Positions 1 to 9,936 of a DNA stretch of 9,936 nucleotides are shown here, piece after piece (the stretch's first letter is position 1; every line of letters starts with the position of its first letter). The position numbers and the translations under genes are program-made. The notes below the pieces were generated by a model, which was not told the DNA's origin, did not search any database, and saw nothing but the letters and a program-made list of their open reading frames with translations. The DNA lies in assembly GCA_035387745.1 (NCBI GenBank), contig DAOOON010000008.1, positions 1 through 9,936 on the forward strand, given 5' to 3'. The stretch comes from an archaeon (GTDB lineage: Archaea; Iainarchaeota; Iainarchaeia; Iainarchaeales; CSSED10-239).

Positions 1-786
1 AAGAAAGCAGATATTGGCATAGCTATGGGAATTAAAGGCACAGAGGCCACAAAAGAGGTTGCTGACGTTGTTCTAAAAGACGATAATTATTCAAGTATTA
101 TTTCTGCAATTAAAGAGGGCAGAAGAATATATGATAATATTTTGTTGTTTGTCAAGTACATGCTAGCAGTTAATTTTGATTTATTAATTATTGTAGCTTT
201 ACTTACAATTTTGGCTTTTCCTATACCACTACTTGCGTTACAGATTCTTTGGATTAATCTTGTAACTGATTCTTTACCGGCTATTGCTCTTGGTAGAAAA
301 CCTGCAACAAAAGATATAATGTTAAGAAAACCAAACAAGCACACCGGTAATTCTTTCAAGTCTTTTACAACTTTTATAATTATTGCTTTAGTTGTTAAAA
401 TTATAGGTGAAATAATTTTGTTTTCTTATGGTCTTAATATTGATACAAGTATGGGTATCAATCCTTTTGATATTAGTCAGCCATCTTATGCAAGGACTTT
501 GTTATTAACGGGCATTGTAGTTTTTGAACTAATATTTGCATTTGCTTGTAATTCAGAAGGGTCCTTTAGCCCAAAGAGATTATTTTCTAACAAGATGCTT
601 ATAGGAAGCGTTATTTTGGTTTTAGCTTTACAATTATTTTTAATATACAATCCATTTATGCAAAATGCTTTTAATGCAGTGGCATTATCTTTTAAGGATT
701 GGTTAATGGTTTTAGCATTTGGATTGTTTTCTTTTATAATTATTCCAATTACTAATTTTTTAGAAAAAATAAGATCAAAAAGTTAA
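1..786 (+). CDS. P-type (E1-E2) cation-transporting ATPase, C-terminal fragment; the 5' end lies outside the window
   Basis: Frame 1 is open from base 1 (KKADIGIAMGIKGTEATKEVADVVLKDDNYSSIISAIKEGRRIYDNI...), so the ORF-track start at 25 is an internal Met. The hinge motif (D-x-G-IAMG..GT..AKE.AD.VL.DDNF) and the TM5/6 motif LQILWINLVTDSLPAIALG are typical of type II, Ca2+-ATPase-like pumps. Several C-terminal TM helices follow. Stop TAA at 784-786. Confidence 0.85.
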   Translation, partial: KKADIGIAMGIKGTEATKEVADVVLKDDNYSSIISAIKEGRRIYDNILLFVKYMLAVNFDLLIIVALLTILAFPIPLLALQILWINLVTDSLPAIALGRKPATKDIMLRKPNKHTGNSFKSFTTFIIIALVVKIIGEIILFSYGLNIDTSMGINPFDISQPSYARTLLLTGIVVFELIFAFACNSEGSFSPKRLFSNKMLIGSVILVLALQLFLIYNPFMQNAFNAVALSFKDWLMVLAFGLFSFIIIPITNFLEKIRSKS

Positions 787-1535
787 TTTCTTTTTATTTC
801 TTTTCTAAAATAGAAAAGATATCTTAAGAAAAGAATAGAGTACTTAAAGATTTTAACGCTTGTTTCTTTTTGTTCTTTCCAAGTAACAGGATAGTCAGTA
901 ATTTTAAGGCCTTTATATTTTGCTAAAACCAGAAGCTCTGTGTCAAAGAACATATTGTTTCTGTCTCCTGATAGTCTTTTTTTAAGAAATAGCTCTTTTA
1001 TCTCATAATATGCTCTCTTATTAATTGCCTTAAAGCCACACTGTGTATCTGTAAAGCTTGTACCCAAAAGCATCTTTTGCAGAAAAAGATATCCTTTGCT
1101 TATAATATATCTCCCTATTGTTCTTTTGGTTTTAGATTCTTTATGGTATCTACTGCCATAAACCAAATCATAGTTTTCTTTAGTAATTTTTTTTATCAAC
1201 CCAGGAAAAGCATCTATTCCGGTTGCAAGGTCTGCATCCATAAATGAGAGAATATCGTAGTTCTTTCCAGTATTATGCCAGGAATACTTGATTGCAATGC
1301 CCTTTCCTTGTTCTTTAACAAAAGTGTACTTGACAGTAGAGTATTTCTTTTCTAGTTTTTTTGCAATATCTTTTGTGTTGTCTTTAGAGTTATTATCTGC
1401 AATATCAATCAGGTATGGTTCTTTAAGTTTTTTAGAAAGAAAACTATTAAGTCTAGTTATGTTTTTTTCTAGTTTCTTGTCTTCGTTATAGCAAGGTATT
1501 GTTATTAATATTTTCGTGTTTTTCAATTTTTTCAC
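783..1535 (-). CDS. GT2 family polyprenyl/dolichyl-phosphate hexosyltransferase (ALG5 / GtrB / ArnC-like)
   Basis: Motifs present are the N-terminal ILITIPCYNE, ADNNSKDNT, GKGIAIKYSW, the DxD motif FMDADL, YGSR and TDTQCGFKAI (the DTQCGFK signature of ALG5-type Dol-P-Glc synthases). The start codon at 1533-1535 is GTG, not ATG, and has no clear SD, so the exact start is uncertain (a TTG lies 3 codons downstream). It sits 9 nt after the upstream GT-C gene. Confidence 0.85.
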   Translation of the reverse strand: MKKLKNTKILITIPCYNEDKKLEKNITRLNSFLSKKLKEPYLIDIADNNSKDNTKDIAKKLEKKYSTVKYTFVKEQGKGIAIKYSWHNTGKNYDILSFMDADLATGIDAFPGLIKKITKENYDLVYGSRYHKESKTKRTIGRYIISKGYLFLQKMLLGTSFTDTQCGFKAINKRAYYEIKELFLKKRLSGDRNNMFFDTELLVLAKYKGLKITDYPVTWKEQKETSVKIFKYSILFLRYLFYFRKEIKRN

Positions 1536-1544
1536 AATTTATTT

Positions 1545-3023
1545 TTATTTTTCTGAGTTAATAAAATAACAGATATTTTCTATTGGCTTTATTTTATTAA
1601 ATAAAATATTACAGGGATTAGTATATAATGAATTATGGATATAAAATAGTTCTACATAGTTTTCTTTTAGTTTACAATTTTTTAAATCTCCTAGTATCAT
1701 GATGTTGTTTGTTTTAATTATTGTGGGCAATTGATTTTCTAATGCTATTATTTGTTCTTTTGAACGAGTAGGAGTATATAGAAACAAAACTTTATCCTGA
1801 TAATTTGGAATATCTTTAATATATATTTCTATTGGTAACATAATAATATTAGAATCCAAATAATTATAGAATGTCCAGGCATCAGAGTACATTACACAAT
1901 CTTCTAAATTATTTTTATAGATTGTGTTTATGGCATTTTTATATCTAGTAATATATGGATAATCTAATTTATAGGTTTCTTCTAATATTTTAATAGAACT
2001 AATAAGCACAGAAAAAATTAGTAGAATATATATCGTTATTAAATAAATGCGATGTAATTTAATTTTGTGTTTTTTAATTTTTTCAGCAATTGATGTTATA
2101 CCAACATATGTAAAATAACCAATTGGAAGCATTAATGTGAAAAGATATCTCATGTCTTTAAAGGGGGTTGAAAAATAGGTGTGTATTGTATATATTGTTA
2201 ATAAAAGCATTATTATAGAAAAGGAATTATTTAGAGGTTTAGCGTTTTTATTTTTTTTAATCAATTTATAAAGAATATATAATAGGCCAATTAATGTAAA
2301 TACAAATAAAATTGATTGGACACTAATAAAATGAATAAGTTTTGGAGCTTGTGCAATATCTAATCTAGAAGTAATGTTTTGATGATATTGGTCTGCTATA
2401 CTTGTAAAGAAATTACCAAATTTTAGTTTGCTGTAAATAAACCAAGGTATAAAAGTTAAGCAAAATAAGATTATAGATTTAATTTTTTTGTCTATTCCTT
2501 TATGAAACAGTAAAATAACGCCAAAAACAATTCCAGTATATCTGGTTAATGCAGAAAAACCAATAAATAACCCAGAGATCCAATTATTTTTTATAATAAA
2601 ATATATCCCTAATAATAATAGGGCTACTGAAAGTAATTCTGTGCCGTTTATTTGTCCAAAATAAAGAACGAACGGAGTAAATAATATTAGATAGAATAAT
2701 TCTGTATTAAAATTTAATTGTTTAGATATTAATATAATACTTAAACAGAATAGTGCACTTACAATTATAATATATATTATTTCTGCAGCAGCATATCCTA
2801 AAATTTGTGCAAATAATCCAATAATAAAAGAAGTTAGTGGGGGTCTAAATGTTTCAAAATAAAGTCCGGAATTAAACATGTTTTTTGCATTTAAAACATA
2901 TGATATAAAATCCCAAGAAATTGTAAATTGATGTTGAATTATAAAGAAAAGTGTTGTAAATAAAAATATAAATAATACAAATTTATATTTTTTTAATAAG
3001 CCCATTATCGTTTTTGAATTCAT
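1545..3023 (-). CDS. Polytopic membrane glycosyltransferase with a GT-C fold (ArnT / PMT_2-like), carrying a C-terminal soluble domain of about 160 aa
   Basis: The protein is 492 aa. About 330 aa contain many predicted TM helices. The first extracytoplasmic loop reads ISWDFISYVLNAKNMFNSGLYFETFRPPL, which matches the acidic-residue ... PPL pattern of ArnT/PMT_2-type GT-C enzymes. The C-terminal region is non-hydrophobic. ATG at 3021-3023 is preceded by GGGTG (SD-like, 3034-3038). The gene lies immediately upstream of a Dol-P-sugar synthase-like GT2. Confidence 0.65.
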   Translation of the reverse strand: MNSKTIMGLLKKYKFVLFIFLFTTLFFIIQHQFTISWDFISYVLNAKNMFNSGLYFETFRPPLTSFIIGLFAQILGYAAAEIIYIIIVSALFCLSIILISKQLNFNTELFYLILFTPFVLYFGQINGTELLSVALLLLGIYFIIKNNWISGLFIGFSALTRYTGIVFGVILLFHKGIDKKIKSIILFCLTFIPWFIYSKLKFGNFFTSIADQYHQNITSRLDIAQAPKLIHFISVQSILFVFTLIGLLYILYKLIKKNKNAKPLNNSFSIIMLLLTIYTIHTYFSTPFKDMRYLFTLMLPIGYFTYVGITSIAEKIKKHKIKLHRIYLITIYILLIFSVLISSIKILEETYKLDYPYITRYKNAINTIYKNNLEDCVMYSDAWTFYNYLDSNIIMLPIEIYIKDIPNYQDKVLFLYTPTRSKEQIIALENQLPTIIKTNNIMILGDLKNCKLKENYVELFYIHNSLYTNPCNILFNKIKPIENICYFINSEK

Positions 3024-3855: not shown

Positions 3856-4647
3856 ATGCCAAGAAAATTTGGAAAAATAAGAGAACCAATAATTAGTATA
3901 AAACGAATAAAAAGAGGCGTTCCAGAAAAAGAAGAATGGCCAATGTCTTTTGGTAAAAAAGAAAGATTTATTAGTAATCCTCTATATTTAGACACGGTTG
4001 TAAATATTAATACAAAAAATAAATCCCCTAAAATTTTGATAATGGGTCCAGGACTTGGCGAAGAAATAATAGAGTTTGATAGCTTTTTAAAAACACACAA
4101 ACATATTAATCCACAAATTGAATCACTAGGAATAACCAATCAACTAACAAAAGATGCTCTAAAAACAGTAAAAAAAGATCATTCTCTTGGTATTGCTTTA
4201 GAAGAGATTGATCCAGAAAACCCCATACATAAGCAAGCTATAAAAAAATTAATTGGGAGATTTGATTATATAATTGCGCCAGTTAGTGTTGGTATTCACA
4301 CAAGATATCCTGCATATAATTGTTTTTTGTGTGCCTTAGCATTAAAACCGCAAGGAGAAGCCAGAATCAATATTATGAATCCAGAATCTATAAAGAGCCA
4401 TATGGATCTTTACAAACACCAACTAACAGAAACTTCAGAACAATATACTCCCACAGAAATAAGAAACATTACTGCAAATTTTAAGCTTGCAAAATTAAAT
4501 TATAATCAAGTAAGTAAAATAGAAAAAATAATATATAGAATGTTAAACTCTTATTTTAAAAAAGATGTAAAAGACCAGTTTTTTATTAAAATAAGAACAG
4601 ATTCTAGTTCCAAACACCAGATAATAGTAATAAAAAGGAATTATTAA
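3856..4647 (+). CDS. Hypothetical protein, 263 aa, with a weak Rossmann / class I methyltransferase-like motif pattern
   Basis: ATG at 3856 is preceded by GAGGT (3842-3846). KILIMGPGLGEEIIEF resembles SAM-MTase motif I. GRFDYIIAP and LKPQGEARI resemble motifs II and III. I recognise no confident family. The N-terminus is basic (PRKFGKIREPIISIKRIKRG). An 11-nt gap separates it from the downstream PRT gene. Confidence 0.65.
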   Translation: MPRKFGKIREPIISIKRIKRGVPEKEEWPMSFGKKERFISNPLYLDTVVNINTKNKSPKILIMGPGLGEEIIEFDSFLKTHKHINPQIESLGITNQLTKDALKTVKKDHSLGIALEEIDPENPIHKQAIKKLIGRFDYIIAPVSVGIHTRYPAYNCFLCALALKPQGEARINIMNPESIKSHMDLYKHQLTETSEQYTPTEIRNITANFKLAKLNYNQVSKIEKIIYRMLNSYFKKDVKDQFFIKIRTDSSSKHQIIVIKRNY

Positions 4648-5125: not shown

Positions 5126-5155
5126 ATTGCGCGCTAACCAGAGCGAAACCGGCTA
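5126..5155 (-). repeat. GC-rich hairpin element, copy A (3' trailer of tRNA-Thr)
   Basis: Minus strand: TAGCCGG-TTTCGCT-CTGGTTA-GCGCGCAAT. The stem is 7 bp with two G.U pairs and a 7-nt loop. It shares the 14-nt core AGCCGGTTTCGCTC and the 9-nt tail GCGCGCAAT with copy B at 7799-7827. It is a strong GC island in AT-rich DNA. Confidence 0.65.
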
Positions 5156-5227
5156 AGCTCCTAGTGGGATTTGAACCCACGACCTCCGGTTTACAAGACC
5201 AGCGCTCTACCACTGAGCTATAGAAGC
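5156..5227 (-). tRNA. tRNA-Thr (anticodon UGU), 72 nt, no encoded CCA, no intron
   Basis: The reverse complement folds as a canonical cloverleaf: GCTTCTA-TA-GCTC-AGTGGTA-GAGC-G-CTGGT-CTTGTAA-ACCGG-AGGTC-GTGGG-TTCAAAT-CCCAC-TAGGAGC-T. The acceptor stem is 7 bp (one G.U), the D stem 4 bp, the anticodon stem 5 bp and the T stem 5 bp. The T loop is TTCAAAT, the anticodon TGT and the discriminator U. Confidence 0.93.
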
Positions 5228-5286: not shown

Positions 5287-6501
5287 TTATTGCTGCCTTA
5301 AAGCATCAACAATATTCATCTTTGCTGCAGCTCTAGCAGGGAAAAGCCCAGATACCAAACCAACAATCAACGATAATAACAATGTCATAATAACTAACCA
5401 AGGAGTAATGTGTATTGTAAGCATTGTAAAGTTATGTGTTGCTGCATAAAGTATTACAAGTCTTGCAATTCCAATTCCTGCAAAAAAGCCAATAATTCCT
5501 CCGACAACAGTTAACACCACAGATTCAAATACAAATATAAAAGTGATATCTGAAATTCTTGCACCAATTGATTTTAAAACCCCAATCTCTTTTGTCCTCT
5601 CAAGAACAGAAGTAAATACAGAGTTAGCAATACCAAGAGACGCGACAATTAATGAAATTCCTGCAATTGCAATAAGAATTGATCTCATCATATTCATAAC
5701 TCTTCTGATTAGTTCTAAAAAAGATTCAGAACTTATAACTGTATATGTGTCCTCTTCTCTTGTTTTTTTAAGTATTCTTTCTATTTTTTTAACTACCAAG
5801 TCAGCATCTGCATCTTCTTTGGATTTAATCATCATGTAGTTTACAGTTTCTCCATAATCATCAACAGCAAGTCCTGCTTTTCTTCCAATATATATAGAAC
5901 TATCGTCTGATTCATTTCCAACTGCTTCTAATATGCCGCCAACTTTAAAATCAACATCATTAATCTTAATTGTATCTCCAACTTTTATTTCTCTATTAAA
6001 TGCTTCTTTTGCAAGGTATGGTCCAATAATTGCAATATATCCGTCTTTTCCATCAAAGCTTTTTCCTTTATCTATTCTAACATCAAAAAACTTAAACATA
6101 GAGTCCAGTTTATCAGAAGGGATAGTAACTACATAAACAAAAAGCTCTTCTCCTTTATATTCTCCTTTAGCTGTAAAGAAATTCATTGCATATACTTCTT
6201 CAACTTCTGCAATCTTAGAAATACTATATGCTTCGCTCATCTTTAACCTATTTTCTTCTGATACTCTTCCAGAAGTATTTGGATTGCCATTAAATGCAGG
6301 CATCACAAAAATAGAATTTGCACCCATCTTATTAAATTGGTCAGTGACTGCTGCAAGCATTCCTTCGCTTAAAACAATTAATGCAACAACTGAAGCAACA
6401 CCTATGATTACAGAAAGAATAGTTAAGGTTGACCTCAACTTCTTTCTGAATATATTCTTTATGGTGAGATTAATCAACGATTTATATTTTTCTGAACTCA
6501 T
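5287..6501 (-). CDS. MacB/FtsX-family ABC permease 2 (TM1, extracytoplasmic domain of about 230 aa, then 3 TM)
   Basis: The N-terminus reads IKNIFRKKLRSTLTILSVIIGVASVVALI (TM1), followed by a large soluble loop and a C-terminal FtsX domain (ERTKEIGVLKSIGARISDITFIFVFESVV...). The ending is VDALRQQ. Its ATG directly abuts the stop of the upstream gene (TAAATG at 6499-6504). AGGA lies 5 nt upstream. Confidence 0.9.
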   Translation of the reverse strand: MSSEKYKSLINLTIKNIFRKKLRSTLTILSVIIGVASVVALIVLSEGMLAAVTDQFNKMGANSIFVMPAFNGNPNTSGRVSEENRLKMSEAYSISKIAEVEEVYAMNFFTAKGEYKGEELFVYVVTIPSDKLDSMFKFFDVRIDKGKSFDGKDGYIAIIGPYLAKEAFNREIKVGDTIKINDVDFKVGGILEAVGNESDDSSIYIGRKAGLAVDDYGETVNYMMIKSKEDADADLVVKKIERILKKTREEDTYTVISSESFLELIRRVMNMMRSILIAIAGISLIVASLGIANSVFTSVLERTKEIGVLKSIGARISDITFIFVFESVVLTVVGGIIGFFAGIGIARLVILYAATHNFTMLTIHITPWLVIMTLLLSLIVGLVSGLFPARAAAKMNIVDALRQQ

Positions 6502-7767
6502 TTATTTCCTTTTTTTAAAGACATTTTGATATAATCCTCCAAAAGCTGGAATCAAAATCTTTTTGTTTGCCCATCTAAGGAATAATATGATTAAGGCAAG
6601 AATAATTATCCCAATTAAAATTCCAATAACTATACTTATTATCCCTGACATTACAGATTTTGTTTTAGGATTTTTTAGAATTTCAACAGTTATGCCTTTT
6701 TTTATTTCTTGTTCTTTAAGAGCTGAGTCTTTATAGTGTATTGTAATCTCGACAGGATAGCTCCCTGGCTTAATGTCTGCGTTTGTATTAAATTCTAAAG
6801 CCACAGAATCATAATTGTCTTTCTCAATAGAACCAACAAAGTATTTTGGAGTTTCAGTTGTTATTGTGCTAGTCATTTCTGCATAAACTGATTCTGCATC
6901 AATGTTACCAACATTATAGATTTCTAGATCAATCTTTTCTTTGTTTCCAATATAGATTTTGTTATTGTTGTTTGTTCCTATACTTACTATATTTAAAACA
7001 AGCTTAGGGTTATCATCAATTTTTACACCAATATCTCTTGTTATTGTTTCTTCTCCTGATTGCCCAGTAAATCTAAGAGTTAATGGCAAAGGATAGCTAT
7101 TTTGTGTAATTGTTTTTGCAACATTTAATTTATATTTTGCTTTAATTTCTTGTCCTGCACCAATATTTTCAAAATATTGTGTTTTAAGATTAAGAACAGA
7201 AATATAGTCTCCTGTAGAGTCTTCTAAAGTTACAAAAACATCTCTAACAGTCTTTGCTCCTAGATTTTTTATAGTTAATTCAAGTTCTCCGTCTGAGCCG
7301 ATAGACATTTCAGATAATTTTGTGTCTGTAATTTCAAGAACAGTAGAGCCTGAAGAAACATCTATTGAATAATTTTCTATGTTATATACTTGGCTTTGTC
7401 CAGGTTTATATTTAAATTCTATTTCATATATATTGTCTTGTGCTTTAATATCTGTTGTTAAATTATATTTGATAATTGTTGTTTGGTATGGTGCCAACAT
7501 GGCTATTGTTTTTTCTGTGTTATTAAAGTCTGCAACAGAAAACGGATATTCTAAGTCTAGTATATAGGTTACATTTTCTGCAAGAACGTTACTATTGTTT
7601 GTTAACTGTATCCATAGTTCAAATTCTTCTCCTGGAGAAACAGGAACTGGACTATAGTTGTATGTATCTGCAACCAAATTTATTGAATCGTAGTCTGTTG
7701 TTGCTGCATATATCCCATTAAGAAGTATAATGGAAAACAGCAGAGTCATTATATATTTTGTTTTCAT
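6502..7767 (-). CDS. Secreted type-I membrane protein with three tandem CARDB-like (COG1361 S-layer-domain-like) beta-sandwich repeats and a C-terminal TM anchor
   Basis: The Sec-type signal peptide is MKTKYIMTLLFSIILLNGIYA/AT. Three units of about 110 aa (aa ~28-137, ~141-251, ~254-364) each carry a G-[ED]-x-hydrophobic-x-L-x-I-x-N-x-G-like strand pattern (PGEEFELWIQLTNNS; SDGELELTIKNLGAKTVRDV; NKEKIDLEIYNVGNIDAESV). The TM helix is GIISIVIGILIGIIILALIILFL, followed by a 24-aa basic tail. SD GGTGAG at 7775-7780, 7 nt before the ATG. Confidence 0.8.
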   Translation of the reverse strand: MKTKYIMTLLFSIILLNGIYAATTDYDSINLVADTYNYSPVPVSPGEEFELWIQLTNNSNVLAENVTYILDLEYPFSVADFNNTEKTIAMLAPYQTTIIKYNLTTDIKAQDNIYEIEFKYKPGQSQVYNIENYSIDVSSGSTVLEITDTKLSEMSIGSDGELELTIKNLGAKTVRDVFVTLEDSTGDYISVLNLKTQYFENIGAGQEIKAKYKLNVAKTITQNSYPLPLTLRFTGQSGEETITRDIGVKIDDNPKLVLNIVSIGTNNNNKIYIGNKEKIDLEIYNVGNIDAESVYAEMTSTITTETPKYFVGSIEKDNYDSVALEFNTNADIKPGSYPVEITIHYKDSALKEQEIKKGITVEILKNPKTKSVMSGIISIVIGILIGIIILALIILFLRWANKKILIPAFGGLYQNVFKKRK

Positions 7768-7774
7768 TTTTTAT

Positions 7775-7780
7775 CTCACC
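7775..7780 (-). promoter_or_regulatory. Shine-Dalgarno motif (GGTGAG) for the CARDB-repeat gene
   Basis: Minus strand GGTGAG-ATAAAAA-ATG. It is the strongest SD in the ABC cluster, whereas the flanking genes rely on stop/start coupling. Confidence 0.6.
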
Positions 7781-7798
7781 ATTTTATTTTTTATAAGT

Positions 7799-7827
7799 AT
7801 TGCGCGCGAGCCGAGCGAAACCGGCTC
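7799..7827 (-). repeat. GC-rich hairpin element, copy B (intra-operon, beginning in the stop codon of permease 1)
   Basis: Minus strand: TA[G-AGCCG-GTTTCGCT-CGGCTC]-GCGCGCAAT. It forms a perfect 6-bp Watson-Crick stem (7822-7827 / 7808-7813) with an 8-nt loop. The first stem base is the G of the TAG stop at 7827-7829. It has the same core and tail as copy A. Confidence 0.65.
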
Positions 7828-9023
7828 TATTCTTCTCGAAGAGCATCAACTGGTTCTTGATTTGAAGCAAGATATGCTGGTATCATTCCAGAGATTACTC
7901 CAATCATAAAGGAAAAGCCAAGTGCTAATATGATTATGCTTGCAGTTATTGAAATACTTATTGTTATTCCTACTTGATAAGCAACTAATTTTACTAGTCC
8001 TGCTAAGCTAAATCCTAAAATAACACCAATGGTCCCTCCAAGTAAACCAATGATTCCGGATTCTAAAAGAAATATCATTAAGATGTCTCTTCTTTTTGCA
8101 CCAATCGCTTTTAAAACTCCAATTTCTTTTTTTCTTTCAAATACAGAAGTATACATTGAGTTAAGTATTCCAACTCCTCCAACTAAAAGCGAAATACAAG
8201 CAATACCAACAACAACAATTGTAACAATACCAAGAGTTTCTTCTCTGTTTTTTGCTTCTTGTATTGGGGAAGTCACAGTAACGTCTTTAGCATCTCTTGC
8301 TTTTTCTAGTTTTATTTCTATTCTGTTTGCTGCATTCTCTATGTCTTTTCCTGGTTTTACAATTGCAAAGATTGTGTCATAGGTTTCTGATTCTGTAATT
8401 TCTTGTAAATTCTCATTTGAAAGATACATTACGTTGTCTTTTCTAGAGTCTCCGGTTTTTTTAAGTATTCCAATGACTGTATAATCAGAGGTTGCAATTT
8501 TTATTTTTTTTCCAATATCTAGGGTTTTTCCAAAAAGGTCTTTTGCTTTTTCTGTATCTGTATAGTTGTAACCAATAATTACTGCTTTACTTTTTTCATC
8601 AGTAATGTATTCCCCTTTTTCAATTTCTAGATTATTTTGTTCTAACATTTCCTGTAAATATTCTGCAGCATAAGAAGTATATGAAATCATTATAGTTTCT
8701 TGAGCATATTTTGTTTCAATATATCCATTTAGAGAGCCACTACTAAATTCAATATCACTAATCTTATTTATAGTTTTTATATCTTCATCAGTTAGTCCTT
8801 TCCCACTGCTGCTTCCTGCAAAACCAGCATATTTAGAAGTTATTGTTATTTTGTTAGCTCCAAGACTATTAAATTCTTCATTTATTGTATTTTTAAGTCC
8901 TTCTGAAAGAGATATTAAAGAAACAATTGCAATTACTCCAACAACAATTCCAAGTATAGTTAGCCAATTTCGAAGTTTTCTTCGTCTGATATTTCTAATT
9001 ACGAAATTAAATATTCCAATCAT
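7827..9023 (-). CDS. MacB/FtsX-family ABC permease 1 (TM1, extracytoplasmic domain of about 225 aa, then 3 TM)
   Basis: The N-terminus reads VIRNIRRRKLRNWLTILGIVVGVIAIV (TM1), followed by a large soluble loop and an FtsX domain (ERKKEIGVLKAIGAKRRDILMIFLLESGI...). The ending is VDALREE. It is a clear but diverged paralog of permease 2. Its ATG lies 1 nt after the ATPase stop (TAA-A-ATG). Confidence 0.9.
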   Translation of the reverse strand: MIGIFNFVIRNIRRRKLRNWLTILGIVVGVIAIVSLISLSEGLKNTINEEFNSLGANKITITSKYAGFAGSSSGKGLTDEDIKTINKISDIEFSSGSLNGYIETKYAQETIMISYTSYAAEYLQEMLEQNNLEIEKGEYITDEKSKAVIIGYNYTDTEKAKDLFGKTLDIGKKIKIATSDYTVIGILKKTGDSRKDNVMYLSNENLQEITESETYDTIFAIVKPGKDIENAANRIEIKLEKARDAKDVTVTSPIQEAKNREETLGIVTIVVVGIACISLLVGGVGILNSMYTSVFERKKEIGVLKAIGAKRRDILMIFLLESGIIGLLGGTIGVILGFSLAGLVKLVAYQVGITISISITASIIILALGFSFMIGVISGMIPAYLASNQEPVDALREE

Positions 9024-9024
9024 T

Positions 9025-9732
9025 TTAATGCGTAATTTTATCTTCTATGATTTTTCCATCTTTTAGATGTATTTGTCTTCTTGCAAGATGTGCAACAGTT
9101 CTATCGTGTGTAATTAATATTATGGTTTTTCCTTTCTTGTTTAAATCTTTTAAAAGATCCATAATCTCTTCGCTTGCTTTAGAGTCTAGAGCTCCAGTTG
9201 GTTCATCTGCAAGTATAATTTCAGGATCATTAGCAAGTGCTCTAGCTATAGCTACTCTTTGTTGTTGTCCTCCAGAAAGTTCAGTTGGTCTGTGTGTGAT
9301 TCTTTCTCCTAAACCCACAAGTGTTAATAAAGCTTTACAATGTTTTTCTTGAATTTCTAAAGGTTTATTGTTTTCTTGAAAAAGCATTGGTAGCATTACA
9401 TTTTCTAAAGCAGTTAAAGTTGGAATAAGATTAAAATCCTGAAAAACAAAACCAATCTTTTGTCCTCTAATCTTTGCAAGATTGTCTTCCGAAAGATTAG
9501 AAACATCTGTTCCATCAAGAAATACTTGCCCTTTAGAAACTAAATCTAGTGCTCCGATAATATGCATCATTGTGGATTTACCAGAACCGCTTGGGCCCAT
9601 GATTGCTAAAAATTCTCCTGGTTTAATTTTTAGGTCAACACCATTTAATGCATTAACGCAAGCTTCAGAACCCATACAGTATATCTTATATACTCCTTTT
9701 AGTTCTACAACATTTTTCTCTTTTATAGCCAT
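9025..9732 (-). CDS. ABC transporter ATP-binding protein, MacB/LolD/FtsE-type (COG1136-like)
   Basis: Motifs present are Walker A GPSGSGKST, the Q-loop FVFQDFNL, the signature LSGGQQQRVAIARAL, Walker B ILADEPTGALD and the H-loop ILITHD. ATG at 9730-9732 is preceded by GGTTGA (reverse complement of 9740-9745). Confidence 0.95.
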   Translation of the reverse strand: MAIKEKNVVELKGVYKIYCMGSEACVNALNGVDLKIKPGEFLAIMGPSGSGKSTMMHIIGALDLVSKGQVFLDGTDVSNLSEDNLAKIRGQKIGFVFQDFNLIPTLTALENVMLPMLFQENNKPLEIQEKHCKALLTLVGLGERITHRPTELSGGQQQRVAIARALANDPEIILADEPTGALDSKASEEIMDLLKDLNKKGKTIILITHDRTVAHLARRQIHLKDGKIIEDKITH

Positions 9733-9918: not shown

Positions 9919-9936
9919 ATTGGGTGCGAGCTGACC
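9919..9936 (-). repeat. Probable third, truncated copy (C) of the GC-rich element at the window edge
   Basis: Plus strand ATTGGGTGCGAGCTGACC versus copy B ATTGCGCGCGAGCCGAGC gives 14/18 identities by hand alignment. It is again an abrupt GC island after about 190 bp of very AT-rich DNA. The window ends before the hairpin core. Confidence 0.3.

What the first reader, a model, noticed from the sequence alone, without database searches (positions are those of the whole stretch)
5287..9732. MacB-type ABC module with two paralogous permeases and an embedded triple CARDB-like surface protein: candidate uncharacterised extracytoplasmic machine
What the sequence shows:
- Four co-directional genes are packed almost without spacers.
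- The order is ATPase, TAA-A-ATG, permease 1, a 59-nt spacer holding a hairpin plus a strong SD, the CARDB-repeat protein, TAAATG, permease 2.
- The two permeases share the full MacB architecture (TM1, large extracytoplasmic domain, FtsX 3-TM bundle) but are clearly diverged. This suggests a LolC/LolE-like heterodimer.
- The 421-aa protein has a signal peptide, three Ig-like CARDB-type repeats, one C-terminal TM helix and a basic cytoplasmic tail.

Established knowledge: MacB/FtsX (type VII) ABC systems do not move substrate across the membrane. They transmit ATP-driven motion to extracytoplasmic partners, such as LolCDE with lipoproteins, FtsEX with EnvC/PcsB, and MacAB with MacA/TolC.

Inference:
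- The membrane-anchored CARDB protein would be the dedicated extracytoplasmic partner or cargo of the heterodimeric permease.
- It resembles none of the known partners. It has no coiled-coil hairpin, no LytM/CHAP domain and no lipobox.
- In a reduced, possibly episymbiotic cell, such a module could act in envelope or S-layer assembly, adhesion, or extraction of material from a host surface.
Basis: partly seen in the sequence, partly recalled or inferred. Interest (0 to 1): 0.7.

Follow-up and report, generated by a model that had tools for sequence, protein, structure and literature searches.

The report
Archaeal ABC pump with Ig-repeat partner
A four-gene operon from a tiny (DPANN-type) archaeon encodes a MacB-type ABC machine whose genes are almost always found together with a membrane-anchored, three-domain Ig-like surface protein; relatives of that protein sit next to a different kind of export pump in salt-loving archaea, so it is probably an archaeal counterpart of the bacterial 'adaptor' proteins that connect export pumps to the cell envelope, a role not yet tested experimentally.

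Summary
On the minus strand, 9732-5287 encodes an ABC ATPase, MacB-type permease P1, a 421-aa protein (signal peptide, three Ig-like domains, C-terminal TM helix, basic tail) and permease P2. The linkage is not chance: all 34 close metagenomic relatives keep ATPase-P1-Ig-P2, and 72 of 89 other non-redundant loci have ATPase, Ig protein and two permeases. Three gene orders occur (A-P-Ig-P, A-Ig-P-P, A-Ig-P). The Ig family is large (3,147 clusters at E<1e-10) and NCBI names relatives 'COG1361 S-layer family protein'. New here: in 9 of 9 haloarchaeal replicons examined, homologues with the same topology lie directly upstream of an MMPL/RND transporter, in 5 of 9 with a divergent TetR/HTH regulator. 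One accessory family serving two unrelated exporter classes, as bacterial periplasmic adaptors do, favours a non-homologous adaptor analogue over cargo or a stray adhesin. Physical interaction, stoichiometry and substrate are untested. Prior literature mentions SalXY-type ABC genes beside 'S-layer domain' genes in Methanococcales only in passing. The spacer hairpin is a lineage-specific repeat element, not a conserved regulator. Rating: new variant of a known kind; interest 0.6.

The parts
9025..9732 (-). ABC ATPase (235 aa) of the MacB/LolD/FtsE clade, with all catalytic motifs intact
   Evidence: ABC_tran 1e-34. Best NCBIfam hits are MacB, LolD, YbbA and FtsE, all below cut-off. Best solved relative is M. 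jannaschii MJ0796, 4e-73. Walker A GPSGSGKS at residue 46, LSGGQ at 152, Walker B IILADE at 172, H-loop ITH at 207.
7827..9023 (-). Permease P1 (398 aa): TM1, MacB-type extracytoplasmic domain, FtsX 3-TM bundle
   Evidence: MacB_PCD 2e-27 and FtsX 6e-24. Full-length match to MacB structures 5gko/5lil/5nik, 6e-33. Hydrophobic segments at 21-39 and 266-381. Orthologues always lie upstream of the Ig gene in 34 relatives.
7799..7827 (-). GC-rich hairpin element (copy 1 of a REP/MITE-like repeat), directly after the P1 stop codon
   Evidence: 7-bp stem. Exact 13-mer GCCGGTTTCGCTC occurs twice in the window against 0.01 expected. A variant with a compensatory stem change is at the same place in L097, and one with a nested insertion in L098/L100; it is absent in the other relatives.
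7768..7798 (-). A/T-rich spacer with TTATAAAA (TATA-like, by eye) and Shine-Dalgarno GGTGA (7780..7776), 8 nt before the Ig start codon
   Evidence: Sequence. GGTG(A) about 8 nt upstream of the ATG is conserved in nearly all window-type relatives. Promoter function is not tested.
6502..7767 (-). COG1361-type Ig-repeat accessory protein (421 aa): signal peptide, Ig1-Ig3, C-terminal TM helix, basic cytoplasmic tail; family signature FVGSIEKDNYDS in Ig3
   Evidence: AF2 pLDDT 84 with three beta-sandwiches. Foldseek gives only generic tandem-Ig matches. NEW3 1e-5, CARDB 3e-3. Family of 3,147 clusters at E<1e-10. Same architecture in 105/124 representatives. Signature motif. Homology to proteins NCBI names 'COG1361 S-layer family protein'.
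5287..6501 (-). Permease P2 (404 aa), paralogue of P1 (33% identity), start codon abutting the Ig stop codon
   Evidence: MacB_PCD 1.6e-28 and FtsX 3.5e-20. P1/P2 comparison. Orthologues always lie downstream of the Ig gene. Separate P1 and P2 clades.
5156..5227 (-). tRNA-Thr(TGT), co-directional, 59 nt downstream of P2 (a neighbour, not part of the machine)
   Evidence: ARAGORN; Rfam tRNA 75.6 bits.
5126..5155 (-). Copy 2 of the GC-rich hairpin repeat, directly after the tRNA
   Evidence: 7-bp stem with two G-U pairs.
9919..9936 (-). Copy 3 of the repeat (3' half only, cut by the window edge), upstream of the ATPase gene
   Evidence: GGTCAGCTCGCACCCAAT matches the L097 variant of the element.
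3856..4647 (+). Unannotated 263-aa ORF with a Rossmann-like GxGxGE motif; possible lineage-specific accessory gene
   Evidence: 35% identical (E 1e-26) to an ORF inserted between P1 and the Ig gene in L107, with similar insertions in L111/L113/L117/L118/L124. Found near the module in 12/37 window-type loci and 0/81 Woesearchaeota-type loci. No Pfam or NCBIfam hit. Structure model unusable.

Best explanation
The operon encodes a type VII (MacB/FtsX-type) ABC machine: an ATPase homodimer and, by inference, a P1/P2 permease heterodimer. It also encodes a dedicated fifth polypeptide, a COG1361-family protein that is secreted by Sec, held in the membrane by one C-terminal helix, and carries three Ig-like domains that would extend roughly 10 nm from the membrane.

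Proposed mechanism (inferred): ATP binding and hydrolysis drive movements of the permeases' extracytoplasmic domains. The Ig protein docks beside or on them through its TM helix and its membrane-proximal domain Ig3, which carries the family signature [FY][IVL]Gx[LIM][ED]x[DN][DN][FY][DE][ST]. It then acts as the extracytoplasmic adaptor that receives or channels what the pump expels, most likely hydrophobic or amphipathic molecules taken from the outer leaflet or the pseudo-periplasm, towards or through the surface layer. In function it would be an archaeal, non-homologous counterpart of bacterial periplasmic adaptor (membrane-fusion) proteins such as MacA, YknX, Spr0693 and AcrA.

Shown: gene content, domain architecture, topology, fold, and very strong conserved linkage to two exporter classes. 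Inferred: physical complex, heterodimer, stoichiometry, direction and identity of the substrate.
For: 1. Linkage. A-P1-Ig-P2 is kept in 34/34 window-type metagenome loci and in L001, L003, L004. Of 89 other non-redundant loci, 72 have ATPase, Ig protein and two permeases; 9 are cut by contig ends but are consistent. The link persists through three gene orders and down to about 20% identity of the Ig protein, including a bacterial contig (L012).
2. Tight packing in the window: 1-nt and 0-nt junctions, and a conserved SD before the Ig gene.
3. The Ig protein behaves like a machine subunit. Its mean column identity is 0.50 against 0.44-0.48 for the permease ectodomains, and distal Ig1 is the most conserved part at 0.56. 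The architecture is uniform in 105/124 representatives.
4. The permease was duplicated into stable orthologous pairs, apparently twice independently. This fits an asymmetric complex, as in LolCDE.
5. Homologues with the same topology (hhalign 98.7%, E 3.6e-16 across all three Ig domains) lie 0-27 nt upstream of an MMPL/RND transporter in 9/9 haloarchaeal replicons inspected. In 5/9 a divergent TetR/AcrR or HTH regulator lies directly upstream. That is the layout of bacterial regulator-adaptor-RND efflux operons. In bacteria one accessory family serving both ABC and RND pumps is the hallmark of adaptor proteins (PMC8277102).
6. Precedent that MacB-type pumps in single-membrane cells depend on membrane-anchored extracytoplasmic accessory proteins: YknWXYZ (PMC4887032) and Spr0693-0695 (PMC5768738).
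7. Weak support: N-glycosylation sequons are enriched in Ig1 (1.9x expectation) and depleted in Ig3 (0.65x) across 27 homologues, as expected if Ig3 is occluded. A MarR-like wHTH gene leads 17/70 Woesearchaeota-type operons.
Against:
- The Ig protein has no similarity to membrane-fusion proteins, and nothing shows that it oligomerises into a conduit.
- It is anchored at the C-terminus, whereas MFPs are anchored at the N-terminus.
- The ESDD[FY]D signature of the ABC-linked subfamilies is not kept in the MMPL-linked haloarchaeal proteins, so the two groups may dock differently or do different things.
- Similarity between Ig-repeat proteins can overstate relatedness.
- Loci sampled within DPANN are phylogenetically related, so the raw counts overstate independence.
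- Regulators are present in only a minority of DPANN operons.
- A cargo relationship would produce the same synteny.
Confidence: 0.55

Rival explanations
1. Cargo or assembly model. The Ig-repeat protein is itself a surface-coat (S-layer-type) protein. The ABC machine (or the MMPL pump in haloarchaea) extracts, positions or recycles it, as LolCDE extracts lipoproteins. The C-terminal helix plus basic tail would act as a sorting signal.
For: The family carries the database name 'S-layer family/domain'. Archaeal S-layer proteins are commonly built of Ig-like domains and anchored at the C-terminus (general knowledge). The layout of hydrophobic helix plus basic tail resembles tripartite sorting signals. 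The H. volcanii homologue gives a faint, sub-threshold hit to a CTERM sorting-domain model (16 bits against a cut-off of 29). A TATA-like box and a strong SD before the Ig gene could give it higher expression. Synteny cannot separate partner from cargo.
Against: No S-layer role has ever been demonstrated for COG1361 proteins; the papers that cite the name only assume it. There is no conserved motif before the TM helix, and the window protein matches no sorting-domain model. The TM and tail are about as conserved as the ectodomain in close relatives. A major coat protein is unlikely to be encoded between two permease genes with 0-nt coupling, or to be linked one-to-one to two unrelated pumps. 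L017 has a second ATPase-Ig pair in the same locus, which fits paralogous pumps better than a single coat.
Confidence: 0.2
2. FtsEX-like signalling model. The transporter moves no substrate. It uses ATP-driven motion, relayed through the Ig stalk, to switch on an unidentified extracellular enzyme or to remodel the envelope during growth or division.
For: Type VII ABC systems include pure mechanotransducers such as FtsEX-EnvC (PMC7668044). The module is retained in at least 428 species-level genomes, the best-matching of which are DPANN lineages with small genomes, which suggests a housekeeping role. Makarova et al. proposed membrane remodelling for the SalXY/'S-layer domain'/SpoIIM-like loci of Methanococcales (PMC5898192).
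Against: No hydrolase or other effector gene is consistently linked. The permeases have full MacB-type ectodomains and match MacB better than FtsX (141/116 bits against at most 43 bits). The MMPL pairing and the TetR regulators in haloarchaea are typical of export or efflux, not of division.
Confidence: 0.15
3. DPANN-specific host-interaction model. The stalk reaches a host cell and the pump extracts or delivers lipids or other material, serving the episymbiotic lifestyle.
For: The ABC-linked subfamilies sampled here are overwhelmingly from DPANN lineages. Type VII ABC systems can extract lipidic molecules from membranes (LolCDE; YbbAP-TesA, PMC12646458). MMPL pumps are lipid exporters (PMC8277102). 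Many DPANN lack lipid synthesis (general knowledge).
Against: The distal domain is conserved rather than diversifying. Homologous pairs occur in free-living haloarchaea, and probably in Methanococcales (homology not tested). A 10-nm stalk hardly projects beyond the cell's own surface layer.
Confidence: 0.07
4. Chance adjacency. A generic adhesin or S-layer gene happened to insert into an ordinary ABC operon.
For: Ig-repeat surface proteins are common and mobile in archaeal genomes (PMC8416519). One locus (L046) has the Ig gene without permeases, and L011 lacks the ATPase.
Against: The association recurs in more than 110 loci, in three gene orders, across lineages whose Ig proteins share only about 20% identity.
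Confidence: 0.02

Closest known systems
MacAB-TolC and its single-membrane relatives Spr0693-0694-0695 (S. pneumoniae) and YknWXYZ (Bacillus)
   Same: MacB-type permease (TM1, large ectodomain, FtsX bundle) with an ATPase of the same clade. Best solved matches are MacB (6e-33), Spr0695 and YtrF. A membrane-anchored extracytoplasmic accessory protein is encoded in the same operon. In those systems the accessory protein is required and/or stimulates the ATPase (PMC4887032, PMC5768738).
   Different: The accessory protein is not a membrane-fusion protein: no alpha-hairpin, lipoyl or beta-barrel domains; all-beta Ig repeats; anchored at the C-terminus rather than the N-terminus. The ATPase and permease are separate genes. 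There are two paralogous permeases. There is no outer-membrane channel, and no Yip1 gene in the DPANN operons.
LolCDE lipoprotein extractor
   Same: One ATPase gene plus two diverged paralogous MacB-type permeases, implying an asymmetric D2CE-like complex. The closest solved ATPase relative, MJ0796, is described as the closest NBD homologue of LolD (PMC8277102).
   Different: Scores are far below the LolC/LolE/LolD equivalog cut-offs. The host is archaeal, with no LolA/LolB partner. The linked protein has no lipobox and no cysteine.
FtsEX-EnvC / FtsEX-PcsB
   Same: A type VII ABC system coupled to a dedicated extracytoplasmic protein rather than to a classical substrate path.
   Different: The partner has no coiled coil and no LytM or CHAP domain. 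The permeases carry full MacB_PCD domains and score only 28-43 bits on FtsX models with cut-offs of 225-255. No hydrolase is linked.
SalXY-type ABC + 'S-layer domain' (arCOG04400) + Yip1/SpoIIM-like cassettes in Methanococcales, Archaeoglobi and Thermococci (Makarova et al. 2014, 2015)
   Same: Archaeal MacB-type ATPase and permease genes (arCOG00922, arCOG02312) lie next to a signal-peptide- and TM-bearing 'S-layer domain' protein, including the neighbourhood of MJ0796. This is the only prior mention found of such an association.
   Different: It was noted only in passing, as part of larger, variable loci, and interpreted as defence or membrane remodelling. No dedicated-partner or adaptor idea and no experiments followed. 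Homology of arCOG04400 to the window protein could not be tested here. The DPANN operons are compact and lack the Yip1/SpoIIM-like genes.
Regulator-adaptor-RND efflux operons (e.g. acrR-acrAB) and the haloarchaeal COG1361-MMPL pairs found here
   Same: In 9/9 haloarchaeal loci the homologous Ig-repeat gene occupies the slot just upstream of the RND-superfamily pump gene, and 5/9 have a divergent TetR/HTH regulator. The accessory protein has the same topology as the window protein.
   Different: The pump class differs (proton-driven MMPL/RND rather than ABC). The haloarchaeal proteins are longer (462-650 aa, one of 1,385 aa) and lack the ESDD[FY]D signature. None has been studied experimentally.

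Membership tests
Type VII (MacB/FtsX-type) ABC transporter superfamily | Permease with N-terminal TM1, a large extracytoplasmic domain between TM1 and TM2, and a C-terminal FtsX three-helix bundle | tested here: met
   MacB_PCD and FtsX are both above Pfam cut-offs in P1 and P2. Full-length alignment to MacB structures. Hydrophobic segments fit a 1+3 topology.
Type VII (MacB/FtsX-type) ABC transporter superfamily | Cognate ATPase of the MacB/LolD/FtsE clade with intact catalytic motifs | tested here: met
   Top NCBIfam hits are MacB, LolD, YbbA and FtsE. Top PDB hits are MJ0796, Spr0694, MacB and LolD. Walker A, Walker B, signature and H-loop are present.
Type VII (MacB/FtsX-type) ABC transporter superfamily | Mechanotransmission: work is done outside the membrane, with no transmembrane substrate path | not testable with these tools
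   Requires structures in several nucleotide states or biochemistry.
LolCDE | Two paralogous permeases with a single ATPase gene (heterodimeric core) | tested here: met
   P1/P2 are 33% identical. Stable P1 and P2 orthologue sets in 34 loci and separate clades. Heterodimer formation itself is inferred.
LolCDE | Equivalog-level similarity to LolC/LolE/LolD | tested here: not met
   lolCE 50.7 and 62.1 bits against a cut-off of 362; LolD 234 against 308.
LolCDE | Lipoprotein cargo (lipobox cysteine) and a LolA-type acceptor | tested here: not met
   The linked protein has no cysteine. No LolA-like gene in the window or in related loci.
MacAB-type tripartite / MFP-dependent pumps | Membrane-fusion (HlyD-family) adaptor with alpha-hairpin, lipoyl and beta-barrel domains | tested here: not met
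   Only Ig-like Pfam hits. All-beta AF2 model. Foldseek matches only tandem-Ig proteins.
MacAB-type tripartite / MFP-dependent pumps | MacB equivalog (fused NBD-permease polypeptide) | tested here: not met
   Separate genes; 240, 141 and 116 bits against a cut-off of 966.
MacAB-type tripartite / MFP-dependent pumps | The accessory protein binds the permease ectodomain and is needed for, or stimulates, activity | not testable with these tools
   Structure prediction takes single chains and returns neither coordinates nor PAE. Biochemistry is required.
FtsEX | FtsX/FtsE equivalog and a coiled-coil/LytM or CHAP partner | tested here: not met
   FtsX models score 28-43 bits against cut-offs of 225-255; FtsE 219 against 265. 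The partner is all-beta Ig.
BceAB-type peptide-resistance transporters | Ten-helix permease with the ectodomain between TM7 and TM8, linked to a BceRS two-component system | tested here: not met
   P1 and P2 are about 400 aa with four TM segments. No histidine kinase or response regulator in the loci.
COG1361 / CARDB-NEW3 'S-layer family' proteins | Tandem CARDB/NEW3-type Ig-like domains in a secreted protein | tested here: met
   NEW3 is above its cut-off and CARDB below it for the window protein. CARDB matches 57/60 and NEW3 50/60 family members. Three beta-sandwiches in the model.
COG1361 / CARDB-NEW3 'S-layer family' proteins | Homology to proteins that NCBI names 'COG1361 S-layer family protein' | tested here: met
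   Profile hits to P0054 (1e-35) and P0060 (8.8e-75). hhalign 98.7% to the Salinigranum protein.
COG1361 / CARDB-NEW3 'S-layer family' proteins | Forms the S-layer lattice | not testable with these tools
   No experimental basis for the name was found in the papers that use it.

The most novel reading that the evidence does not exclude
COG1361-type, C-terminally anchored Ig-repeat proteins are a previously unrecognised, archaea-wide class of exporter adaptor. They would be a non-homologous replacement for bacterial membrane-fusion proteins, coupling both MacB-type ABC machines (DPANN, probably Methanococcales) and MMPL/RND pumps (Halobacteria) to the pseudo-periplasm and S-layer. In DPANN cells, which generally cannot make their own lipids, the ABC version might move lipids or other hydrophobic material across the envelope.
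Probability: 0.3. Interest if true: 0.8.

Novelty: new variant of a known kind. Interest (0 to 1): 0.6.

Why it matters
How archaeal exporters hand substrates across the space between the membrane and the S-layer is essentially unstudied, and reviews of MacB-type and tripartite pumps barely mention archaea. This operon points to a concrete candidate: one accessory protein family genomically linked to two unrelated pump classes. It occurs in at least 428 species-level genomes (the best-matching 80 are almost all DPANN MAGs) and in genetically tractable haloarchaea, including Haloferax volcanii pHV4. That makes the idea directly testable. It would also give a function to the uninformative 'COG1361 S-layer family protein' annotation, and a transporter context to MJ0796, a textbook ABC ATPase structure. 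If the adaptor idea is wrong, the module is still one of the most consistently conserved uncharacterised envelope operons in the DPANN genomes sampled here.

Tried and rejected
- Word-indexed homologue searches saturated on close relatives. Breadth came from the exhaustive profile search.
- The genome scan with the 60-sequence alignment failed because no stretch was conserved enough. It was redone with a 25-sequence alignment.
- The weak Sulfuracidifex hit (P0057) has no ABC neighbours and was set aside as a non-member.
- There is no solved structure of the Ig family by sequence or profile. Foldseek gave only generic tandem-Ig matches, so the fold gives no functional clue.
- The hairpin as a regulatory element was rejected. 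It is no more stable than shuffled sequence, it is absent in most relatives, and it is part of a repeat family.
- 'All sequons in Ig1' holds for the window protein but not across homologues. Only a gradient remains.
- Accessory-gene candidates (class I methyltransferase, MscS, Rossmann-like ORF, wHTH) are lineage-specific, not core.
- The structure of the Rossmann-like ORF was unusable at pLDDT 36.5.
- Complex modelling was not attempted. Structure prediction accepts only single window or homologue sequences and returns neither coordinates nor PAE.
- tblastn of the Woesearchaeota-type protein against plasmids found nothing.
- Ten literature searches found no paper proposing this partnership.
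The correct count is 5 of 9.

Full report
**1. What is in the window**

The window is AT-rich (21-35% G+C). Positions 9732 to 5287 on the minus strand carry four tightly packed genes:
- an ABC ATPase (9732..9025, 235 aa);
- permease P1 (9023..7827, 398 aa);
- a 421-aa protein (7767..6502);
- permease P2 (6501..5287, 404 aa).

A tRNA-Thr(TGT) follows on the same strand.

The other genes in the window are a P-type ATPase C-terminus, a GT2 glycosyltransferase, a GT87/EpsG-like membrane glycosyltransferase, a ZIP transporter, an unannotated 263-aa ORF and a phosphoribosyltransferase. The closest relatives of the 421-aa protein come from MAGs labelled 'archaeon' or 'Candidatus Ainarchaeum', so the source is a DPANN-type archaeon.

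**2. Domain checks**

Pfam gives ABC_tran for the ATPase, and MacB_PCD plus FtsX for each permease, all well above the cut-offs. The ATPase has every catalytic motif. Its best solved relative is M. jannaschii MJ0796 (4e-73). The permeases align full-length to MacB structures.

No curated NCBIfam equivalog (MacB, LolC/E, LolD, FtsE/X, DevC, YbbP) comes near its cut-off. This is a type VII ABC system outside every characterised family. P1 and P2 are 33% identical.

The 421-aa protein has a signal peptide, one C-terminal TM helix, a basic tail and no cysteine. Pfam sees only marginal Ig-type hits: NEW3 just above its threshold and CARDB below it. An AlphaFold2 model built on 28 homologues is confident (pLDDT 84) and shows three beta-sandwich domains followed by a long helix. 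Foldseek against PDB returns only generic tandem-Ig proteins: integrin legs, HYDIN, alpha-2-macroglobulin and transglutaminase C-domains. No solved relative exists by sequence or profile.

**3. The Ig family is large and uniform**

An exhaustive profile search found 5,445 clusters (50% identity) at E<1e-3, 3,147 at E<1e-10 and 543 at E<1e-30. Most are 390-430 aa and match end to end. Of 124 representatives of 370-470 aa, 105 have the same layout of N-terminal signal, C-terminal TM helix and basic tail. CARDB matches 57 of 60 diverse members. NCBI names some of them 'COG1361 S-layer family protein'.

The family has a signature in the membrane-proximal domain Ig3: [FY][IVL]Gx[LIM][ED]x[DN][DN][FY][DE][ST]. 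In the window protein it reads FVGSIEKDNYDS.

**4. Linkage to the ABC genes**

Neighbourhoods of divergent homologues showed several arrangements:
- ATPase-P-Ig-P (L001-L004);
- ATPase-Ig-P-P (Woesearchaeota and marine contigs);
- ATPase-Ig-P (L012 is a bacterial contig with a sigma-70 gene).

Only a weak Sulfolobales hit lacked ABC genes.

A scan of GTDB species representatives with the signature motif found 428 relatives. The best 80 loci were fetched. A metagenome scan with the close-family alignment gave 36 more. I called ORFs in all loci and detected ATPase, permease and Ig homologues with the window's own proteins.

Results:
- All 34 window-type loci have ATPase-P1-Ig-P2 as far as each contig reaches. 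The upstream permease always matches P1 best and the downstream one P2.
- Among 89 other non-redundant loci, 72 have ATPase, Ig protein and two permeases. One more has a fragmented permease. Three have the one-permease form. Nine are cut by contig ends but are consistent.
- Only L046 (Ig gene alone) and L011 (no ATPase) are real exceptions.

The loci are phylogenetically related, so the counts are not independent. Even so, persistence through three gene orders and down to about 20% identity shows selection for linkage.

A neighbour-joining tree of 152 permeases (midpoint-rooted, no bootstrap) separates first and second permeases of the Woesearchaeota type into two clades. It places window-type P1 and P2, each with its own orthologues, in a different clade together with the single-permease systems. 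This suggests that the permease duplicated twice independently, which fits an inherently asymmetric complex.

**5. How the Ig protein evolves**

In about 25 window-type operons, mean column identity is:
- 0.70 for the ATPase;
- 0.58 for P1 and 0.52 for P2;
- 0.50 for the Ig protein;
- 0.44-0.48 for the permeases' own ectodomains.

Distal Ig1 is the most conserved Ig domain (0.56), and the TM helix scores 0.47. That is the behaviour of a machine subunit, not a diversifying adhesin.

N-glycosylation sequons are enriched in Ig1 (3.2 per protein against 1.7 expected) and depleted in Ig3 (1.2 against 1.8). This is weak evidence that Ig3 is occluded.

**6. Operon details**

A GGTG(A) Shine-Dalgarno about 8 nt before the Ig start codon is conserved in relatives.

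The GC-rich hairpin in the spacer is not conserved. It occurs only in the window, in L097 (with a compensatory C:G to T:A change in the stem) and in L098/L100 (with a 64-nt nested insertion). The window has two further copies, one after the tRNA and one truncated at the window edge upstream of the ATPase gene. Its stability is unremarkable. It is a REP/MITE-like repeat.

Accessory genes are lineage-specific:
- A Rossmann-like ORF homologous to window 3856-4647 lies inside the operon in six relatives and near it in 12/37 window-type loci.
- A MarR-like wHTH gene leads 17/70 Woesearchaeota-type operons.

**7. A second partner class**

tblastn of the window protein against annotated plasmids hit three haloarchaeal megaplasmids weakly. 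Profile-profile comparison confirmed homology across all three Ig domains (98.7%, E 3.6e-16). The haloarchaeal proteins share the topology of signal peptide, Ig repeats, C-terminal TM helix and Arg-rich tail.

In every one of nine loci inspected, the gene is followed within 0-27 nt by an MMPL/RND-superfamily transporter gene (MMPL E 1e-28 to 1e-45). The genera are Salinigranum, Halobacterium, three Haloarcula, Haloferax volcanii pHV4, Natronorubrum, Haladaptatus and Halorubrum. In five of the nine, a divergent TetR/AcrR (3) or other HTH (2) regulator lies directly upstream. Thirty-eight haloarchaeal replicons carry such proteins.

Regulator-adaptor-RND is the canonical layout of bacterial efflux operons. 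In bacteria, an accessory family shared by ABC and RND pumps defines the periplasmic adaptor proteins (PMC8277102).

**8. Interpretation**

The best-supported reading (confidence 0.55) is that the Ig-repeat protein is a dedicated extracytoplasmic subunit of the ABC machine, functionally analogous but not homologous to membrane-fusion adaptors. There is precedent in single-membrane bacteria. YknYZ needs the anchored adaptor YknX and the Yip1-family YknW (PMC4887032). Spr0693 forms a conduit over Spr0694-0695 and stimulates its ATPase (PMC5768738). Yip1-family genes also flank the 'S-layer domain'/SalXY genes of Methanococcales.

The rivals are:
- a cargo or assembly relationship (0.2);
- an FtsEX-like switch with an unknown effector (0.15);
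- a DPANN-specific host-interaction role (0.07);
- chance adjacency (0.02).

The substrate is unknown. The partner pumps and regulators suggest hydrophobic or amphipathic molecules, but that is inference.

**9. Prior knowledge**

Ten full-text searches found no paper proposing this partnership.

The closest are Makarova et al. 2014 and 2015. They listed SalX/SalY (arCOG00922/arCOG02312) beside an 'S-layer domain' protein (arCOG04400) within variable loci of Methanococcales, Archaeoglobi and Thermococci, including the region next to MJ0796. They suggested defence or membrane remodelling. I could not test whether arCOG04400 is homologous to the window protein.

Papers that cite COG1361 simply assume an S-layer or adhesive role. 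One reports a COG1361 gene induced 4.6-fold (log2FC 2.21) by silver in Haloferax alexandrinus. Whether that gene is the MMPL-linked copy was not verified.

**10. Verdict**

The lifestyle-specific speculation is not supported. The system is a new variant of a known kind: a type VII ABC machine with a new class of accessory protein. Interest is 0.6. It is not a surprise in principle, but it is a widespread, testable candidate answer to how archaeal exporters connect to the envelope.

Noticed in passing
window 7827-7799, 5155-5126, 9936-9919 (all minus strand); L097:1120-1150; L098 and L100 P1-Ig spacers: A GC-rich hairpin repeat (consensus about GAGCYGGTTTCGSTCRGCTCGCRCSCAAT) in a 29% G+C genome. 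It has three copies in the window: after P1, after tRNA-Thr, and truncated at the window edge. A relative carries a compensatory stem change, and two relatives carry a 64-nt nested insertion inside the element. It looks like a REP/MITE-like element. There is no Rfam match.
   Followed up: partly
window 3856-4647 (+); L107:3965-4624, L111, L113, L117, L118, L124 (between P1 and the Ig gene); L003:8543-9409, L004:8483-9382 (convergent after P2): An unannotated protein of about 220-263 aa with a Rossmann-like GxGxGE motif and no Pfam or NCBIfam family. It is a recurrent neighbour of window-type modules (12/37 loci), and in six relatives it is inserted inside the operon in the same orientation. 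Its function is unknown; the single-sequence structure model failed (pLDDT 36.5).
   Followed up: partly
L129-L137 (haloarchaeal replicons, e.g. Haloferax volcanii pHV4 NC_013966.1 472294-476165): COG1361/CARDB/NEW3 Ig-repeat genes lie immediately upstream of MMPL/RND transporter genes in 9/9 loci inspected. In 5/9 a divergent TetR/AcrR or HTH regulator lies directly upstream. 38 replicons carry such proteins. No description of this pairing was found in the literature searched.
   Followed up: yes
L119:2840-3670, L124:2155-3030, L125:2616-3452: An unknown 276-291-aa ORF with no Pfam hit is inserted between the ATPase and P1 genes in three window-type relatives.
   Followed up: no
L006:4792-5274, L007:4778-5266 and 15 other Woesearchaeota-type loci: A MarR-like winged-helix gene of about 160 aa, overlapping or adjacent to the ATPase start codon, leads the operon in 17 of 70 loci. 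This suggests autoregulated or inducible expression in that subset.
   Followed up: partly
L017:11011-13248; L046:5839-7122; L011:5827-8470: Variants of the module. L017 has a second ATPase-Ig pair downstream of a complete module. L046 has an orphan Ig gene with an ATPase gene 2 kb away on the opposite strand. L011 has Ig protein plus permease without an ATPase, next to IS elements.
   Followed up: no
window 783-3023 (-): A GT2 glycosyltransferase and a 492-aa multi-TM GT87/EpsG-like glycosyltransferase lie about 2-4 kb from the operon. The Ig protein carries six N-x-S/T sequons, all in Ig1, so it may be a glycoprotein. No link was tested.
   Followed up: no
L001, L003, L004 and 12-14 other window-type loci, upstream of the ATPase gene: A class I SAM-methyltransferase gene (15/37 loci) and an MscS channel gene (17/37 loci) lie upstream of the ATPase gene on the opposite strand in window-type loci. 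This is probably local synteny among related genomes rather than a functional link.
   Followed up: partly
L016, L017, L020, L022 and others; L071: Many contigs carrying Woesearchaeota-type modules are deposited as 'uncultured Methanosarcinales archaeon' (TPA MAGs), and one as 'Candidatus Aminicenantes bacterium'. The labels look like placeholders or mis-binning and were not verified.
   Followed up: no
L132:4139-5527 (H. volcanii WP_004040820.1), residues 437-461: A faint, sub-threshold match of the C-terminus to the NCBIfam 'GVDTG sorting domain' model (16 bits, cut-off 29). This raises the possibility that some family members are processed at the C-terminus. The window protein shows no such hit.
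   Followed up: no
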